Below are positions 468 through 7,550 of a stretch of 64,000 nucleotides of DNA, in pieces. The stretch's first letter is position 1. Every line of letters begins with the position of its first letter. This DNA is from Escherichia coli (GTDB lineage: Bacteria; Pseudomonadota; Gammaproteobacteria; Enterobacterales; Enterobacteriaceae): NCBI RefSeq assembly GCF_046105845.1, contig NZ_CP151004.1; one strand, 5' to 3'. Below the pieces are notes generated by a model. It made no database searches. It was not told the DNA's origin and saw nothing but the letters and a program-made list of their open reading frames with translations. A program made the position numbers and the translations under genes.

Positions 468-920
468 TTAATGTTGCGGTTTATATCGCATAGAAAAATT
501 AGTAAACCACGCTCCCCTGCATTCAACGCGCTGCTGCTTAACTGTCTGAAAACCATAACGTTCAAAAAAGGGTTTTGCGGTTATGCTGGCGTCCACCGTA
601 AGTTCGGATTCAGACTTAATCAAAGGTTTTAACAAAGCGCTGGCAACCCCACAGCGGGTGTATTCAGGGTCAACAAATAACATATCGATATAGTGTTCAA
701 TGCGGGAAATAAAACCAACCGATTGTGCATTAATGATCGCAACCCACACTTGTGATTTCGCGAATTTCTCCTTCCAGCGAGATTCGTCAATCTGCGCCCA
801 GGCGGCAATTTGCTGCGGAGAATAGTGCTGACTGGCAGTCATCGTAACCGCTCGAAGGAAAATAGCGCATAGTTGCTGAAAATCGCCAGGCTGATAGTTT
901 CTTATTTGTATGTTATTCAT
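468..920 (-). CDS. yafP: GNAT-family N-acetyltransferase YafP
   Basis: 150 aa ORF; last gene of the dinB-yafN-yafO-yafP arrangement; acetyltransferase-like sequence. Confidence 0.85.
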   Translation of the reverse strand: MNNIQIRNYQPGDFQQLCAIFLRAVTMTASQHYSPQQIAAWAQIDESRWKEKFAKSQVWVAIINAQSVGFISRIEHYIDMLFVDPEYTRCGVASALLKPLIKSESELTVDASITAKPFFERYGFQTVKQQRVECRGAWFTNFSMRYKPQH

Positions 921-929
921 AATATAAAT

Positions 930-1328
930 TCAAAAACGCATGCGAAACGCTTCTGCCATTTTTCCAATTTTATGCATTTGGTTGTTATCTCGAGCCAGTT
1001 TATGAGGTTCAGGCTTCAGAATGGCAATGAGCAACCATGCTTGCTCATCAAACGCACCCTGACAATATACCAAATGCGCTTCGTCATTCGTTCTGCTGAA
1101 TTGGCGCAACTGTGGCGGAAATGGATTATTCACATTTGCCAGATGAATATGAGCAACTCGCTCAAATTTGATTAATGGCCAGGTAAACGAGTCGTCGTAG
1201 AGTGCATCGCGACCAAATATATCTGGCAAAACACCGTCACGCTTATAGGAAATAAAATCCGCCGTTAACGCATCAAGTTCCTCTGCTGTAAGTTGCAGGC
1301 GAATAAGTTTTGTTTTGAATACCCGCAT
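930..1328 (-). CDS. yafO: Type II toxin YafO (ribosome-dependent mRNA interferase)
   Basis: 132 aa ORF immediately downstream of yafN (2-bp spacing); position and size as in the dinB operon. Confidence 0.85.
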   Translation of the reverse strand: MRVFKTKLIRLQLTAEELDALTADFISYKRDGVLPDIFGRDALYDDSFTWPLIKFERVAHIHLANVNNPFPPQLRQFSRTNDEAHLVYCQGAFDEQAWLLIAILKPEPHKLARDNNQMHKIGKMAEAFRMRF

Positions 1329-1330
1329 CC

Positions 1331-1624
1331 TTATTCCTTAAAGTCATTGAAATCATCATCCGTCATATCATTAAGATATTGTTCAGCGCGGCGTGTAATT
1401 TCCTCTAATCTTGCAGCACTTGGACGGAAGCGCGCCTTTATGGGCTTTTTCTCCTCTTGTTCAGCAAGCATGTCCATTAACGCTTCGAATGCGCTGGCAC
1501 TTAAGAGATATCCTGCGGGGCGATTATTAGAAAGAACCGCAACCGGTTGATCAATAAAGTATTTAGCTGGGTTTTTACGTAACTCAGTAATATTGACCGA
1601 TTTTTCAGCGAGAATTCGATGCAT
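1331..1624 (-). CDS. yafN: Type II antitoxin YafN (Phd/YefM-like)
   Basis: 97 aa ORF starting MHRILAEKSVNITELRKNPAKYF; antitoxin-before-toxin order with yafO. Confidence 0.85.
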   Translation of the reverse strand: MHRILAEKSVNITELRKNPAKYFIDQPVAVLSNNRPAGYLLSASAFEALMDMLAEQEEKKPIKARFRPSAARLEEITRRAEQYLNDMTDDDFNDFKE

Positions 1625-1675: not shown

Positions 1676-2731
1676 TCATAATCCCAGCACCAGTTGTCTT
1701 TCCATTTGCGGGTCAAGTAACGTCACATGCAGCCCCACCAGACGCACACCGCGCCCGCCACGGCGTTCATCCCAGGTTTTACGCGCAGTGGCGATCAAGT
1801 CAGCTTTATTCAGCCGTGGCCAGACGTGCTCCTGAGTAGTTTGCTGAAAATCATCAAACTTTAATTTCACCCCCTGGCGAGCAATCAGTAAATCAGGTTT
1901 AACCTTTGCCAGGCGGCGTTCAAGTTCCGGGTACAGCCGCTCGATAATCGCTTCACATTCAGACCAGTGATGAATATCTTCCGCCATCGTGCGTTCCACG
2001 CCGACGGATTTTCGCAACCGTTCGCTGTTAACGTCGCGCTCGTCAATCCCCTGACTACGCTCCCACAAAATGCGGCCAAATTTGCCAAAACGTTTGAGCA
2101 GAGTCACCAGATCACACTTTTGCACATCACCGCAGGTCCGCAGCCCCATCGCTTCCAGTTTTGCCGCCGAAACTTTGCCGACGCCGGGAATTTTTGCCAG
2201 CGGTAAGGTTTGCAGAAATGCCGGAACTTCTGCCGGAGTAATCACAAACTGACCGTTGGGTTTATTCATGTCGGAAGCAATTTTGGCGAGAAACTTTACC
2301 GGCGCAACGCCCGCAGATGCCGTCAGTTGCAGCTCGTTAAAGATCGTCTGACGGATTTCCTGGGCGATGAGGGTCGCGGAGCCGTGGCAATGCACACTAT
2401 CGGTGACGTCGAGATAGGCTTCATCCAGTGATAACGGTTCAATGCGCGAGGTGAAGCGCGAGAAAATTTCGCGGATATGATTTGAGGCTTCTTTGTAGGC
2501 GTCAAAGCGCCCTGGAAGCAGCGTGAGATGTGGGCATAATTTGAGTGCCATCCCTGTCGGCATAGCGCTACGTACGCCAAATTTACGCGCGGGATAATTG
2601 GCGGTGCTGATCACCCCCCGACGTTCGCGGCTGCCGCCAATAGCAATAGGGATATCGCGCAGGGCGGGATTGTCGCGCATCTCCACCGCTGCGAAAAAGC
2701 AGTCCATATCCACATGAATGATTTTACGCAT
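1676..2731 (-). CDS. dinB: DNA polymerase IV (Y-family translesion polymerase)
   Basis: 351 aa ORF starting [33 protein letters not shown], the DinB N-terminus. Confidence 0.95.
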
Positions 2732-2801: not shown

Positions 2802-3500
2802 CTAGCGCGTTCGCTGCGAATGCACCTGCTGCTTATCCAGCTTTTGCACCAGCGGCTGCACCACTTTATCCCCATGCTGACCAAAGTATTGATACAGCGT
2901 ATCGGACGCACTTTTGGTCAGCACCATAATCTCAATGCGTCGGTTGCCCGCGCTTTGCGGATTTTTCGCGTCCAGCAGCATCTGGTCCGCCATCGCGCTC
3001 ACCTGCATCACTTTATCTTCCGGCATTCCGGCCTCTTCCAGCACCCGACGAGCCGAAAGCGCGCGATCGCCCGAAAGGTTCCAGTTGTTGTAGATATTGT
3101 TTTTGTAGGCCATCGCATCGGTATGCCCGGTAATAATAATTTTGTTATCGAGCGAGTCGAACACTGGCGCGAGCTCCACCAGCAAAGTTTTAAAGAACGG
3201 CATAATCTGTGCGCTGCCGCGTTCAAACATATTGCGGTTCTGGTCATCTTTAATCAGCACGCGCAGTCCCTGGGGAACAATCTCCATCTCCAGATTCGCT
3301 TCCATATGTGCATCACGGGCAATGGTGTTGATACTGGTCGCCAGCTCGCCAAGCTCAGTAGCGGATTTCTTCTTCAGCAGCGCCGTTTTCTCATTGACGT
3401 CACGCGCTTTTTTCTCCGTCTCTTCCGGCACCGCCACGGTGGCAGGTTTTGGCGGATGAGACGGGCTGATTTTATTTAACGGCGACAACCCGCCGCCATT
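2802..3500 (-). pseudogene. lafU: lafU remnant (MotB-like lateral-flagellar motor protein, C-terminal OmpA-like part only)
   Basis: ORF 2802..3692 has an OmpA/MotB C-terminal domain (NWNLSGDRALSARRVLEEAG...NRRIEI) but no N-terminal transmembrane helix; its first ~65 codons are antisense to lfhA, so the real 5' part is missing. Confidence 0.7.
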
Positions 3501-5271
3501 GAAAATCGACTGCCCGTGCAGCGCGGCGATAATGCTTTCACGCTCGGATTTACTGACGCTGTTGACAATCAACTTTATCGTCGTCACCAAAGGGGCCGAG
3601 CGTATTTCCGAGGTTTCTGCCCGCTTTACCTTAGACGCGATGCCCGGTAAACAGATGGCGATTGACGCCGATCTTAACGCTGGGTTGATCAACCAGGCGC
3701 AGGCGCAAACCCGGCGTAAAGATGTTGCCAGCGAGGCCGATTTCTACGGCGCGATGGACGGGGCATCGAAGTTTGTGCGCGGGGACGCCATCGCCGGGAT
3801 GATGATTCTGGCGATCAACCTGATCGGCGGCGTCTGTATCGGCATCTTCAAATACAACCTGAGCGCCGACGCCGCCTTCCAGCAGTATGTGCTGATGACC
3901 ATCGGCGACGGGCTGGTGGCGCAGATCCCGTCCCTGCTGCTCTCCACCGCGGCGGCAATTATCGTCACCCGCGTCAGCGACAATGGCGATATCGCCCATG
4001 ACGTGCGCCACCAGCTGCTGGCAAGCCCGTCGGTGCTCTACACCGCCACCGGGATCATGTTTGTGCTGGCGGTGGTGCCGGGGATGCCGCATCTGCCATT
4101 TTTGCTGTTCAGCGCCCTGCTGGGTTTTACCGGCTGGCGGATGAGCAAACGCCCGCAGGCGGCGGAGGCGGAGGAGAAAAGCCTCGAAACGCTGACCCGC
4201 ACCATCACCGAAACCAGCGAGCAACAGGTCAGTTGGGAGACTATTCCGCTGATCGAACCCATCAGTTTAAGCCTCGGTTACAAACTGGTGGCGCTGGTCG
4301 ATAAAGCGCAGGGTAACCCACTCACCCAGCGTATTCGCGGCGTGCGGCAAGTGATATCCGACGGCAACGGCGTGCTGCTGCCGGAGATCCGTATTCGGGA
4401 AAACTTCCGCCTCAAGCCCAACCAGTACGCCATATTCATCAACGGCATTAAGGCCGATGAAGCGGATATTCCGGCGGATAAACTGATGGCCCTGCCCTCC
4501 AGCGAAACCTACGGCGAGATTGACGGCGTGCTGGGGAACGACCCGGCGTACGGGATGCCGGTCACCTGGATTCAGCCTGCGCAGAAAGCGAAGGCGCTGA
4601 ATATGGGGTATCAGGTGATCGACAGCGCCAGCGTGATTGCCACCCATGTGAACAAGATTGTCCGCAGCTATATTCCTGATTTGTTTAACTATGACGATAT
4701 TACTCAGCTGCATAACCGTTTGTCGTCGATGGCACCGCGACTGGCGGAAGATTTGAGCGCGGCGCTCAATTACAGCCAGTTGCTGAAAGTGTACCGGGCG
4801 CTACTGACTGAAGGCGTTTCCCTACGCGATATCGTCACCATCGCCACCGTGCTGGTCGCCAGTAGCACAGTGACCAAAGATCATATTCTGCTGGCAGCTG
4901 ATGTGCGCCTGGCGCTACGGCGCAGCATTACCCATCCGCTCGTTCGCAAGCAGGAGCTGACGGTGTATACGCTGAATAATGAGCTGGAAAATCTGCTGAC
5001 CAACGTGGTGAATCAGGCGCAACAGGCCGGCAAAGTGATGCTCGACAGCGTGCCGGTGGACCCGAATATGCTTAACCAGTTCCAGAGTACGATGCCACAG
5101 GTGAAGGAGCAGATGAAAGCGGCGGGGAAAGACCCGGTGCTGCTGGTGCCGCCGCAACTGCGTCCATTGCTGGCGCGCTATGCAAGGTTGTTTGCGCCGG
5201 GGCTGCATGTGCTGTCGTATAACGAAGTGCCGGATGAGCTGGAGTTGAAGATTATGGGGGCGCTGAGTTGA
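3499..5271 (+). pseudogene. lfhA: lfhA remnant (FlhA-family export gate protein lacking the N-terminal membrane region)
   Basis: ORF begins inside the FlhA signature (ITKGAERISEVSARFTLDAMPGKQMAIDADLNAG) without the ~130 aa transmembrane N-terminus; C-terminus looks complete. It converges on and overlaps lafU. Confidence 0.75.
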
Positions 5272-5307
5272 TGCCTTTTAAGAAACACAATACGATGACA
5301 TCAATTT

Positions 5308-5703
5308 ATGACGTCAGGGATTGATAAGATGATGAAAACGCGTTTATTAATATCTCAAGCATCGAACATTATCACCATTAAAGGTCAACCAGCCGCAGTG
5401 ACATTTGAAGCCGATATCAACGCATTTCGCGGCAAATTTCTCAATGTAAATGGTTATTGCGACTTTGTAGCGACAAGCATTGAGGCGTTATACCGGGAAG
5501 GTGAAAGTGCGCTGGATGAGTGGATGGCGGATTGTGAAGAGGACGGCATTGCCCCTTTTCGTGAAGAAGAGCAAAAACGCCTGACGCTTCGTGTTCCTCA
5601 TCACATCGATTCACGACTGACCATTGTCGCCAGACAACATTCCATTTCAAAAAATCAGCTCATTGTTGATGTATTAGAACGTGAGTTTTCATCCCAGATG
5701 TAA
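5308..5703 (+). CDS. HicB-like antitoxin-family protein with C-terminal ribbon-helix-helix (no HicA partner seen)
   Basis: 131 aa ORF; C-terminus ...RLTIVARQHSISKNQLIVDVLEREF looks RHH-like; likely start at ATG 5329/5332 after an aggga Shine-Dalgarno. Family assignment is from memory. Confidence 0.5.
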   Translation: MTSGIDKMMKTRLLISQASNIITIKGQPAAVTFEADINAFRGKFLNVNGYCDFVATSIEALYREGESALDEWMADCEEDGIAPFREEEQKRLTLRVPHHIDSRLTIVARQHSISKNQLIVDVLEREFSSQM

Positions 5704-5709
5704 ACAGGT

Positions 5710-5738
5710 CGGATGCCGTGTGGCATCCGATTTTTTTC
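5710..5738 (+). terminator. Rho-independent terminator after the HicB-like gene
   Basis: cggatgcc-gtgt-ggcatccg hairpin followed by a T-run (attttttt). Confidence 0.55.
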
Positions 5739-5759
5739 CTGATCGTCAGTATTCTCCGT

Positions 5760-6518
5760 TTACAAAATCGTCTCTTCCGTCAAAATCCTGCGCGCGCCTA
5801 AAAAATGATCCTGCCAGAAAGGCTCAGCTAACCGACTTACCCGAATGGTTTCCCCCGTGCGCGGCGACTCGATAAACTGACCGTCTCCCAGATACACGCC
5901 CATATGATCGGCTATCTCGCGGCTGTGGATATGGAAAAACAGCAAATCTCCCCGGCGCAGGTCGTTGTTCGCCACAATCGTTGCCCGATGGTAGTGATAC
6001 ATCTCATTAGCCGTACGCGGGAGCTTCGCCTCGAGGATCTTGTTGTAGGCATAAAAAACCAACCCGCTACAGTCGAAGCCTTGATCAGGCCGCGTGCCGC
6101 CCCAGACGTAAGGTTTGCCAAGCTGCTGCTCCAGGCGGTGAATCGCCACTTCGGTGATGTTGTGTAGATGGTCGCTGCTTAAGAAATGGTTGTTCTCCGC
6201 CAGCGCCTGCCAGCGTCTGTCACTCGCCTTGAGCGGCGCAGGAAACCATTCTGGATGCTGTTTTATCTGTTCGCGGTTGTGCTGGCGCAGCGCCTTTCTG
6301 CTTTCGGCATTGCCTTCCACAATGTAGCTGGCCTGCTTTTTCAGATGGGTTTGGTACTGTTTTAATAAACGCGCCCGGTTTTGCATCCGCTGGCGGGCGG
6401 CGTAGCTGAAAGAGATATGTGATGTGGTGGCGCTGGCGAGTAAAGGGAGCAAAACGCATAACGAAAACACGCCTGGATGCAGAAATCTGCCGTGAAAGAA
6501 CGAAGACATGAAGGACAT
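5760..6518 (-). CDS. yafL: NlpC/P60-family lipoprotein peptidase YafL
   Basis: 252 aa ORF; signal peptide plus NlpC/P60 catalytic region (YVWGGTRPDQGFDCSGLVFYAY). Confidence 0.85.
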   Translation of the reverse strand: MSFMSSFFHGRFLHPGVFSLCVLLPLLASATTSHISFSYAARQRMQNRARLLKQYQTHLKKQASYIVEGNAESRKALRQHNREQIKQHPEWFPAPLKASDRRWQALAENNHFLSSDHLHNITEVAIHRLEQQLGKPYVWGGTRPDQGFDCSGLVFYAYNKILEAKLPRTANEMYHYHRATIVANNDLRRGDLLFFHIHSREIADHMGVYLGDGQFIESPRTGETIRVSRLAEPFWQDHFLGARRILTEETIL

Positions 6519-6809
6519 AAACTAGCTGAATGAAGGAGAGAATTTTAAAAGGTTGGGGGAGTAAACGGGATTATTAATTGCTTATTTGCATATTAGTTAC
6601 GAGGTTTCATAATCTTAGGAAATAAGTGATACATGCGCTTTTCGGACTAATGAAAACTGCCCCTGTGCTAAATTTGTAAACCCTGCGCCGACAGGCTTGC
6701 GTAAAACTCTTTTGGTGATAATGTGAGCCTTCCAAATCCAGACTATTCCGATTTGGGATCCATTTTGCCGTCCTGGCGTGTGTAACCGTTTTATCAAGGA
6801 ATAAGCAGT

Positions 6810-7550
6810 ATGCGTAAAATCGCATTAATTCTTGCGATGTTGTTGATCCCGTGCGTTTCGTTTGCCGGTTTGCTGGGCAGCAGTAGCTCAACCACGCCAG
6901 TGAGCAAAGAGTATAAGCAGCAGTTGATGGGATCCCCTGTCTACATCCAGATCTTCAAGGAAGAACGTACGCTCGATCTCTACGTCAAAATGGGCGAGCA
7001 ATATCAGCTGCTCGACAGTTATAAAATCTGTAAATATTCCGGCGGCTTAGGGCCAAAACAGCGTCAGGGCGATTTCAAAAGCCCGGAAGGGTTTTATAGC
7101 GTCCAGCGTAATCAGTTAAAACCAGACAGCCGTTACTACAAAGCAATTAATATTGGATTCCCCAATGCCTATGACCGTGCGCATGGTTATGAAGGGAAAT
7201 ACCTGATGATCCACGGCGATTGTGTTTCCATCGGCTGCTACGCGATGACCAATCAGGGTATTGATGAGATCTTCCAGTTCGTTACTGGTGCGCTGGTGTT
7301 TGGTCAGCCGAGCGTGCAAGTGAGTATTTACCCGTTCCGCATGACCGACGCCAATATGAAGCGCCATAAGTATTCCAACTTTAAGGACTTCTGGGAGCAA
7401 CTGAAACCGGGCTACGACTACTTTGAGCAAACCCGTAAGCCACCGACCGTTTCTGTGGTCAATGGCCGTTACGTGGTCAGCAAGCCGTTAAGCCACGAAG
7501 TTGTGCAACCACAGCTGGCATCAAACTACACGCTCCCCGAGGCAAAATAA
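6810..7550 (+). CDS. yafK: L,D-transpeptidase-family periplasmic protein YafK
   Basis: 246 aa ORF with signal peptide [19 protein letters not shown] and a YkuD-like domain with [14 protein letters not shown]. Confidence 0.88.

What the first reader, a model, noticed from the sequence alone, without database searches (positions are those of the whole stretch)
5308..6809. Orphan HicB-like gene where K-12 carries rayT; no dinJ-yafQ between yafL and yafK
From memory, the K-12 order is yafK-yafQ-dinJ-yafL-rayT-lfhA. Here the yafL/yafK intergenic region is only about 290 bp with no toxin-antitoxin pair, and the position next to lfhA holds a 131-aa HicB/RHH-like ORF with no HicA partner. This suggests strain-specific turnover of toxin-antitoxin and REP-transposase content around the dinB region.
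Basis: partly seen in the sequence, partly recalled or inferred. Interest (0 to 1): 0.4.

Follow-up and report, generated by a model that had tools for sequence, protein, structure and literature searches.

The report
Toxin-less remnant of hicAB cassette
This E. coli strain carries only the antitoxin half (HicB) of a toxin-antitoxin pair at a known swap site where K-12 has the rayT gene, and it never gained the neighbouring dinJ-yafQ pair; this is ordinary, largely published strain-to-strain variation.

Summary
The window is the E. coli dinB region, in reverse orientation to K-12. K-12 has dpaA(yafK)-yafQ-dinJ-yafL-rayT-lfhA'. The window has a 291-bp yafL/yafK spacer with no dinJ-yafQ, and a HicB-family ORF (Pfam PF05534) with no HicA between lfhA' and yafL.

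The lone HicB is a decayed hicAB cassette. In 1,371 of 5,426 complete E. coli genomes the same site holds hicA-hicB. In 108 genomes (2%, including E. coli C) the exact window junction is found. That junction keeps the proximal hicA upstream region and the hicA start codon. A net 250 bp is missing, and the native hicB ATG is now ATA. The reading frame therefore runs from the hicA ATG (5329) into hicB codon 4, which predicts a 124-aa protein.

rayT occupies the site in 3,575 genomes. The rayT-to-hicAB replacement was published in 2012 (PMC3333891).

Lack of dinJ-yafQ is common (about 38% of genomes) and looks ancestral. The window's spacer and yafL signal-peptide segment align over their full length with Escherichia albertii. 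K-12 carries an insertion there that also replaced the 5' end of yafL.

Whether the lone HicB is expressed or selected is not resolved. The finding is real but of low novelty.

The parts
3499..5271 (+). lfhA' (fhiA), the 3' remnant of the Flag-2 FlhA gene. It forms the conserved left border of the variable site.
   Evidence: ORF. It is collinear with the K-12 lfhA pseudogene at 96% identity.
5285..5333 (+). Retained proximal hicA upstream region, ending in the hicA-type start codon. It is about 78% identical to the matching stretch of intact hicAB alleles. The distal copy of the 21-bp TGACACCAT-N-TGACGTCA repeat seen in intact alleles is missing.
   Evidence: Alignments. Repeat analysis of the intact allele.
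5300..5325 (.). Imperfect 13+13 palindrome ATCAATTTATGAC/GTCAGGGATTGAT, centred on TGACGTCA. It is a candidate operator for the ribbon-helix-helix HicB dimer; this role is inferred, not tested.
   Evidence: The same TGACGTCA core occurs twice upstream of intact hicA.
5329..5358 (+). Ten junction codons (MMKTRLLISQ). The first nine or so resemble the HicA N-terminus (M-I/M-K-x-x-x-L-x-S). The junction includes ATA at 5350, where intact hicB has its ATG.
   Evidence: HicA N-termini of relatives. Residues 1-11 are modelled as disordered.
5329..5703 (+). Lone HicB-family antitoxin ORF, 124 aa from the hicA-type ATG. Alternative starts are ATG 5308 (131 aa) and the RefSeq ATA 5350 (117 aa). The part homologous to hicB is 5359-5700.
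   Evidence: Pfam PF05534. All 31 family-invariant residues are present. The AlphaFold2 model's best PDB matches are all HicB structures.
5706..5740 (+). Intrinsic-terminator hairpin and T-run lying between the convergent hicB and yafL genes.
   Evidence: Fold energy -19.8 kcal/mol, z = -4.2.
5760..6518 (-). yafL, an NlpC/P60 (C40) peptidase. Its first 27 or so codons (signal peptide) belong to the allele-specific segment.
   Evidence: Pfam NLPC_P60. Protein comparison with K-12.
6438..6669 (.). Allele-specific segment covering the yafL signal-peptide codons, the yafL upstream region and part of the spacer. In K-12 it is replaced by about 840 bp that carry a different yafL 5' end plus dinJ and yafQ.
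   Evidence: Alignments. Present in 2,083 of 5,426 genomes. Homologous over its full length to E. albertii.
6519..6809 (.). The 291-bp yafL/yafK intergenic region. It holds no toxin-antitoxin pair.
6810..7550 (+). yafK (dpaA/ldtF). It forms the conserved right border.
   Evidence: NCBIfam NF040599, 428 bits.

Best explanation
Two adjacent variable sites in E. coli are seen here in less familiar states.

Site 1 lies between the convergent ends of lfhA' and yafL. It holds one of several alternative inserts in different strains: the rayT REPtron, a hicA-hicB toxin-antitoxin cassette, or almost nothing. The window carries a decayed hicAB cassette. A net 250 bp comprising almost all of hicA is gone. 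The proximal hicA upstream region with one TGACGTCA palindrome remains, as does the hicA start codon. The native hicB start is ATA, and the frame runs from the hicA ATG at 5329 into hicB codon 4.

Inferred from this: a 124-aa HicB with an intact HicA-binding N-domain and a ribbon-helix-helix C-domain is still made, using hicA's translation signals. It probably represses its own promoter at the palindrome. It has no cognate toxin to neutralise, which makes it a lone antitoxin left by toxin-first decay of the module.

Site 2 lies between yafL and yafK. The window has the ancestral Escherichia arrangement. K-12-type strains carry an insertion that brought dinJ-yafQ together with a new yafL 5' end.
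For: Shown:
- K-12 gene order and the two non-homologous segments.
- An intact hicA (Pfam HicA_toxin) followed by hicB at the same site in EC556, IDR and others.
- The window aligns to the hicA upstream region and start, then jumps to hicB codon 4.
- Genome counts: hicB 1,479, hicA 1,371, window junction 108. The difference 1,479-1,371 is 108.
- rayT in 3,575 genomes, dinJ-yafQ in 3,340, the window-type spacer in 2,083.
- More distant relatives in Enterobacteriaceae LSJC7 and Klebsiella sp. all have hicA directly upstream, overlapping hicB.
- HicB fold: the top eight PDB matches include 6g26, 4p7d, 6u0i and 4p78.
- All family-invariant residues are kept.
- The ORF is intact and in frame with the upstream ATG in three diverged haplotypes: the window, EC190329 and E. 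coli C.
- E. albertii has the same dinJ-less spacer and the same yafL signal peptide type. A Citrobacter has neither cassette.
- The published rayT/hicAB replacement (PMC3333891).
Against: Expression, the true start codon, operator binding and any activity of the lone HicB are untested. The simple sigma-70 scan found no promoter-like site upstream on the + strand. The 24 nt between the hicA-type ATGAT and hicB codon 4 align only weakly to intact alleles, so the exact deletion end points are uncertain. No intact hicAB carrying this diverged upstream sequence was found. The ancestor may therefore have been a diverged cassette, not the common one. The low dN/dS between lone alleles (0.05-0.12) is confounded, because those alleles are recombinant mosaics with hicA-linked alleles.
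Confidence: 0.8

Rival explanations
1. The lone HicB is kept by selection for a job of its own. It might neutralise HicA toxins brought in by plasmids or other mobile elements (an anti-addiction or immunity role), or it might have become a transcription factor.
For: The ORF is intact in three diverged haplotypes and is joined in frame to a usable ATG. All invariant residues of both domains are kept. Most differences between alleles are synonymous: 6S/1N, 9S/4N and 11S/3N. HicA relatives of this subfamily at 61-64% identity sit on 26-206-kb Salmonella plasmids. Lone antitoxins have been proposed to act this way (PMC7192599).
Against: Only 2% of genomes carry it. The synonymous excess can be explained by recombination that imports variation from hicA-linked alleles. 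E. coli C has three private amino-acid changes. There is no close HicA on E. coli plasmids other than mislabelled chromosomes, and none in coliphages. Nothing has been tested.
Confidence: 0.2
2. The lone hicB is a silent pseudogene. It lost its own start codon and part of its promoter, and it persists only because too little time has passed for it to decay.
For: The native ATG is ATA. The distal operator-like repeat is missing. No sigma-70-like site was found upstream. The allele is rare.
Against: The allele occurs in distant backgrounds (E. coli C, ST405-like strains, a bovine isolate) with synonymous divergence of 0.08-0.16 between copies, yet none of the three haplotypes read has a frameshift or stop. 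The in-frame upstream ATG with a GGA/AGG motif 8-10 nt before it is conserved. Read-through from lfhA' is possible, since its stop lies only 57 nt upstream of the ATG.
Confidence: 0.2
3. The window's lineage once had dinJ-yafQ and lost it by deletion.
For: dinJ-yafQ is the majority state, found in 62% of genomes. E. coli C combines the lone hicB with dinJ-yafQ.
Against: The dinJ-less segment is not a scar. It is a full alternative sequence that includes a different yafL signal peptide, and it aligns end to end with E. albertii. dinJ-less alleles are much more diverse (80-100% identity) than dinJ-yafQ alleles (nearly all at least 95%), as expected if the insertion is the younger state. No DinJ or YafQ remnant was found.
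Confidence: 0.1

Closest known systems
The hicA-hicB cassette between yafL and fhiA (lfhA) in E. coli B1-type strains such as IAI1 (Ton-Hoang et al. 2012, PMC3333891)
   Same: It sits at the same chromosomal site with the same flanks. The hicB is 93% identical in DNA and differs in protein only by one Glu codon and one Ser/Ala. It has the same terminator hairpin.
   Different: hicA is missing apart from about 9 diverged codons. The hicB start codon is ATA. Only one of the two upstream 21-bp repeats remains. The upstream DNA is only about 78% identical.
Structurally characterised HicB antitoxins: B. pseudomallei HicAB 6g26, Y. pestis HicB3 4p7d/4p78, E. coli K-12 HicB 6u0i
   Same: The predicted two-domain architecture is the same: a beta-rich N-domain plus a long helix, followed by a ribbon-helix-helix C-domain. 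These are the best structural matches.
   Different: Sequence identity is only 10-16% and there is no sequence-level PDB match. Foldseek E-values are weak (0.02-0.4), and whole-chain TM is about 0.4 because the domain orientation differs. K-12's own hicAB lies elsewhere in the genome and has a short 58-aa HicA, whereas this subfamily's HicA is 92 aa.
Lone (orphan) antitoxins and toxin-first decay of chromosomal toxin-antitoxin modules, for example the K. pneumoniae survey (PMC7192599) and ccdO157 decay cited in PMC7167474
   Same: An antitoxin is left in the original genomic context after loss of the toxin gene, within an accessory and frequently exchanged module.
   Different: Here the loss fuses the toxin's start codon in frame to the antitoxin. 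That could keep the antitoxin translated even though its own start codon has mutated.
The rayT (tnpAREP, yafM) REPtron of K-12
   Same: It occupies the same intergenic slot between yafL and lfhA.
   Different: The sequence and function are unrelated. No REP/BIME sequences flank the hicB allele.

Membership tests
HicB antitoxin family (Pfam PF05534) | Match to the family profile above the curated threshold | tested here: met
   41.1-41.3 bits against a cut-off of 21, E=1.5e-10, residues 67-116 of the 124-aa form.
HicB antitoxin family (Pfam PF05534) | Two-domain fold: an N-terminal HicA-binding domain plus a C-terminal DNA-binding (ribbon-helix-helix) domain | tested here: met
   AlphaFold2 model with mean pLDDT 78: four strands and a long helix, then two helices at 91-103 and 108-123. 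The top eight Foldseek PDB matches are HicB or HicB-like proteins, with probability up to 1.00 but E-values only 0.02-0.4.
HicB antitoxin family (Pfam PF05534) | Close relatives are encoded next to a HicA toxin | tested here: met
   1,371 E. coli genomes have hicA overlapping hicB at this site. Relatives at 67-68% identity in two other Enterobacteriaceae do as well. The upstream protein matches Pfam HicA_toxin at 30.4 bits against a cut-off of 27.
Complete type II hicAB toxin-antitoxin system | A HicA toxin gene adjacent to hicB | tested here: not met
   Only 57 nt separate the lfhA' stop from the ATG at 5329, and only 56 nt separate the hicB stop from yafL. tblastn with three HicA proteins finds nothing below E=0.24 in 64 kb.
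Complete type II hicAB toxin-antitoxin system | Antitoxin neutralises the toxin and represses the operon | not testable with these tools
   This needs toxicity-rescue and DNA-binding experiments.
dinJ-yafQ toxin-antitoxin system | dinJ and yafQ lie between yafL and yafK | tested here: not met
   The spacer is 291 bp, tblastn finds no significant match, and the segment is an alternative allele.
rayT REPtron | A Y1 transposase gene flanked by REP/BIME repeats between yafL and lfhA | tested here: not met
   There is no similarity to K-12 rayT or to its REP arrays in 5272-5759.

The most novel reading that the evidence does not exclude
The toxin-less, start-codon-swapped hicB allele is kept by selection in lineages such as E. 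coli C and ST405-type strains as stand-alone immunity against HicA toxins delivered by plasmids or other mobile elements. It would be translated from the dead toxin's own initiation signals.
Probability: 0.15. Interest if true: 0.4.

Novelty: new member of a known kind. Interest (0 to 1): 0.15.

Why it matters
It matters little beyond annotation and strain typing. The work shows that three adjacent polymorphisms assort independently in E. coli: whether Flag-2 is intact or truncated, which insert sits between lfhA and yafL (rayT, hicAB, hicB alone or nothing), and whether dinJ-yafQ is present. It also shows that K-12 is the derived state at the dinJ-yafQ site. It flags a probable start-codon mis-annotation of the 117-aa RefSeq HicB (ATA start). 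Because E. coli C is a laboratory strain that carries the lone allele, it offers an easy test of whether lone antitoxins are expressed and protect against incoming toxins.

Tried and rejected
- I searched for a HicA, DinJ or YafQ remnant by tblastn over the whole window with word size 2 and E up to 100. Only chance-level hits appeared.
- I looked for an intact hicAB with the window's diverged upstream sequence. A sensitive blastn of the junction found only the 108 hicA-less genomes. A scan of species-representative genomes gave five loci, none of them of that type.
- A sequence search of the PDB found no real match.
- An Rfam scan of 5000-7000 found nothing meaningful: one hit at E=0.89, far below threshold.
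- I tried to show purifying selection after the loss of hicA using dN/dS between lone alleles. I rejected this as a clean test because the site pattern shows the alleles are recombinant mosaics with hicA-linked alleles, and because yafL next door is itself hyperdiverse.
- The simple promoter scan gave no + strand site upstream of hicB.
- The papers on dinJ-yafQ distribution among phylogroups (Fiedoruk 2015; Ramisetty and Santhosh 2016) are not held in the library. They are known here only through citations in PMC7167474 and PMC5120126.

Full report
**What is there.** The ORFs of the first 12 kb and a blastn against MG1655 show that the window is the E. coli dinB region in reverse orientation to K-12. 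The genes are:
- yafP 468-920(-), yafO 930-1328(-), yafN 1331-1624(-), dinB 1676-2731(-)
- the Flag-2 scar, 'lafU 2802-3692(-) and lfhA' 3499-5271(+)
- a HicB-like ORF 5308-5703(+)
- yafL 5760-6518(-) and yafK/dpaA 6810-7550(+), followed by yafJ, gmhA and fadE

The window aligns to K-12 everywhere in this stretch except 5267-5754 and 6438-6669. The yafL/yafK spacer is 291 bp. tblastn with DinJ, YafQ and three HicA proteins finds only chance matches in the whole window (best E=0.24). The ORF matches Pfam HicB PF05534 at 41 bits against a cut-off of 21, and no other family passes.

**What the lone HicB is.** A megablast of 5200-6900 against 5,426 complete E. coli genomes shows a highly polymorphic locus. 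In strains such as EC556 and IDR1900005638 the same slot holds hicA (92 aa, Pfam HicA_toxin) overlapping hicB (118 aa) by 8 bp. Alignment shows the following:
- The window keeps a diverged copy (about 78% identity) of the proximal hicA upstream region.
- It keeps the hicA start: GGATTGATAAGATGAT in the window against GGATTGATAGTATGAT in the intact allele.
- Homology then lapses for about 24 nt and resumes at hicB codon 4.
- The native hicB ATG reads ATA at 5350.

The distance from the hicA ATG to hicB codon 4 is 280 nt in intact alleles and 30 nt here. The net loss is therefore 250 nt. That figure exactly cancels the +1 frame offset between hicA and hicB, so the ATG at 5329 is in frame with hicB.

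The predicted product is 124 aa, MMKTRLLISQ followed by HicB residues 4-118. Its first nine residues fit the HicA N-terminal pattern M-I/M-K-x-x-x-L-x-S seen in EC556, Klebsiella sp. and Enterobacteriaceae LSJC7. RefSeq annotates 117 aa from the ATA codon, which looks like a homology-driven start call. The 131-aa form is simply the longest ORF.

Intact alleles carry two 21-bp direct repeats (TGACACCAT-N-TGACGTCA) 40 bp apart. The window keeps only the proximal one, as part of a 13+13 imperfect palindrome at 5300-5325. A strong hairpin with a T-run follows the stop codon (5706-5740; -19.8 kcal/mol, z = -4.2).

**Family membership.** Twenty-one relatives at 50-97% identity align without difficulty. 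All start M-x-K-x-S/T-N, and all 31 invariant residues are present in the window protein. An AlphaFold2 model built on that alignment (mean pLDDT 78; residues 1-11, the junction peptide, below 50) has a four-stranded sheet plus a long helix, followed by a two-helix C-terminal domain. Its best Foldseek matches in the PDB are all HicB proteins: B. pseudomallei 6g26, Y. pestis HicB3 4p7d and 4p78, E. coli K-12 6u0i, and TTHA0281 2dsy. The E-values are modest (0.02-0.4). There is no sequence-level PDB match. The protein is therefore a HicB-family member. The locus is not a complete hicAB system, because the defining toxin gene is absent.

**Population frequencies, among 5,426 complete E. coli genomes:**

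| Feature | Genomes |
|---|---|
| hicB of this locus | 1,479 |
| hicA of this locus | 1,371 |
| exact window junction (hicA-less) | 108 |
| rayT | 3,575 |
| dinJ-yafQ | 3,340 |
| window-type yafL/yafK segment | 2,083 |

- The gap between the hicB and hicA counts (1,479-1,371) equals the 108 junction genomes.
- hicB and rayT together leave roughly 370 genomes with neither. Two of these were read: SCU-102 and CLSC36 have only a 97-161-bp spacer.
- dinJ-yafQ and the window-type segment together account for essentially every genome.

The lone-hicB genomes include E. coli C and NCTC122, a tapir isolate, a bovine isolate with intact Flag-2 (XJ6.1), and many 5.0-5.3-Mb clinical isolates, among them strains labelled 405 and O102:H6. 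E. coli C combines the lone hicB with dinJ-yafQ. XJ6.1 combines it with an intact Flag-2 cluster. The window has neither. The three neighbouring polymorphisms therefore assort independently.

**Prior knowledge.** Ton-Hoang et al. 2012 (PMC3333891) reported tnpAREP (rayT) between yafL and fhiA in 74 of 110 E. coli/Shigella genomes. They also reported precise excision in 7 B2 strains, and replacement of rayT and its BIMEs by hicA-hicB in 24 strains, mostly B1. My frequencies (66% rayT, 25% hicAB) agree. Their text does not mention a hicB-only form. Toxin-antitoxin modules as accessory, decaying genes, and lone antitoxins as a common outcome, are established (PMC7167474; PMC7192599).

**Ancestral state of the dinJ-yafQ site.** The K-12 and window alleles differ by more than an insertion. 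The non-homologous stretch starts inside the yafL signal-peptide codons and ends at AAATTTGTAAACC, around position 6670. The two YafL proteins therefore have different N-termini. An E. albertii contig has a 312-bp yafK-yafL spacer and a YafL N-terminus of the window type, and it aligns with window 6380-6840 over the full length. A Citrobacter genome also lacks dinJ-yafQ, and it has only 37 bp between yafL and the FlhA-like gene. dinJ-less segments are very diverse (80-100% identity), whereas dinJ-yafQ segments are nearly uniform. I infer that the window shows the ancestral arrangement and that K-12-type strains gained dinJ-yafQ together with a new yafL 5' end. The E. albertii contig carries REP repeats and the start of a rayT gene after yafL. 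This fits the published view that rayT is old at this site.

**Is the lone HicB functional?** This is unresolved.

In favour:
- The ORF is intact and in frame with the upstream ATG in three haplotypes whose synonymous divergence is 0.08-0.16.
- Differences between them are mostly synonymous (6S/1N, 9S/4N, 11S/3N).

Against a clean inference:
- The variable-site pattern shows mosaics. EC190329 is window-like in the 5' half and identical to hicA-linked alleles in the 3' half. Much of the variation was therefore probably imported by recombination after being filtered in toxin-bearing backgrounds.
- yafL next door has dS of 0.15-0.5 between strains, so deep divergence is a property of the whole locus.
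- The promoter scan found no + strand site upstream.
- HicA relatives of this 92-aa subfamily occur on a few Salmonella plasmids at 61-64% identity, but not on genuine E. coli plasmids or in coliphages. A protective role against incoming toxins is conceivable but unsupported.

**Most likely mechanism.** Shown: the toxin gene is lost, and the antitoxin frame is joined to the toxin's start. Inferred: the 124-aa HicB is translated from the hicA initiation region. Its ribbon-helix-helix domain dimerises and represses transcription at the retained TGACGTCA palindrome. With no partner toxin, it is a largely functionless survivor of toxin-first decay. I give about 0.2 each to the alternatives that it is selected (immunity or regulation) or that it is silent.

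**Verdict.** The finding is real and correctly read, but ordinary. Both polymorphisms are common. The rayT/hicAB swap is published, and lone antitoxins are a known outcome of module decay. The modest additions are the anatomy of the hicA loss (an in-frame start-codon swap), its 2% frequency including the laboratory strain E. coli C, and the inference that the dinJ-yafQ-less arrangement is ancestral.

Noticed in passing
window 13158-49395: About 36 kb has no K-12 counterpart between yafV and tRNA-Asp (aspV). K-12 has only yafT-ykfM-yafU-yafF there. The segment encodes a type VI secretion cluster: TssF, IcmF/TssM, two VgrG, a ClpV-like AAA+ ATPase, VasE/TssK, VipB/TssC, VasL and an OmpA-domain protein. 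From my own knowledge it looks like the familiar aspV-associated island.
   Followed up: partly
window 5760-6437 (yafL mature part) and the same gene in loci L002-L012: yafL is unusually diverse within E. coli. Synonymous divergence between strains is 0.15-0.5 while dN/dS stays at 0.01-0.09. This suggests old alleles kept or exchanged together with the neighbouring cassettes.
   Followed up: partly
window 6438-6518 versus K-12 (L004 3713-3790): The two allele classes give YafL entirely different N-terminal signal-peptide sequences: MSFMSSFFHGRFLHPGVFSLCVLLPLLA in the window and MSLPSIPSFVLSGLLLICLPFSSFA in K-12. Both precede the same mature protein starting SATTSH. The dinJ-yafQ insertion therefore also rewired the yafL start and promoter.
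   Followed up: partly
L001 3151-3504 (RefSeq WP_097420904.1) = window 5350-5703: RefSeq annotates the lone HicB from an ATA codon (117 aa). [quoted passage not shown]
   Followed up: yes
L013 (SFGJ01000062.1, labelled MAG: Clostridiales bacterium): This 3.4-kb contig carries E. coli lfhA'-hicA-hicB-yafL at 94% or higher protein identity. It is almost certainly an E. coli contaminant binned into a Clostridiales metagenome-assembled genome.
   Followed up: no
L005 1573-1733 and L007 1573-1669 (strains with neither rayT nor hicAB): The 'empty' lfhA-yafL spacers contain a GC-rich palindromic unit, CCTCGCCCCTTTGGGGAGAGGGTTAGGGTGAGGGG...CCCCAAAGGGGCGAGGG. It is present in a long and a short form, unlike the REP/BIME repeats of rayT strains, and was not identified further.
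   Followed up: no
PLSDB records NZ_OL790696.1 (4.8 Mb), NZ_CP134663.1 (4.9 Mb), CP061270.1 and CP099174.1 (1.2-1.3 Mb): These records are listed as E. coli plasmids but are chromosome-sized and carry the chromosomal hicAB locus. They are probably mislabelled chromosomes or chromosome fragments in the plasmid collection.
   Followed up: no
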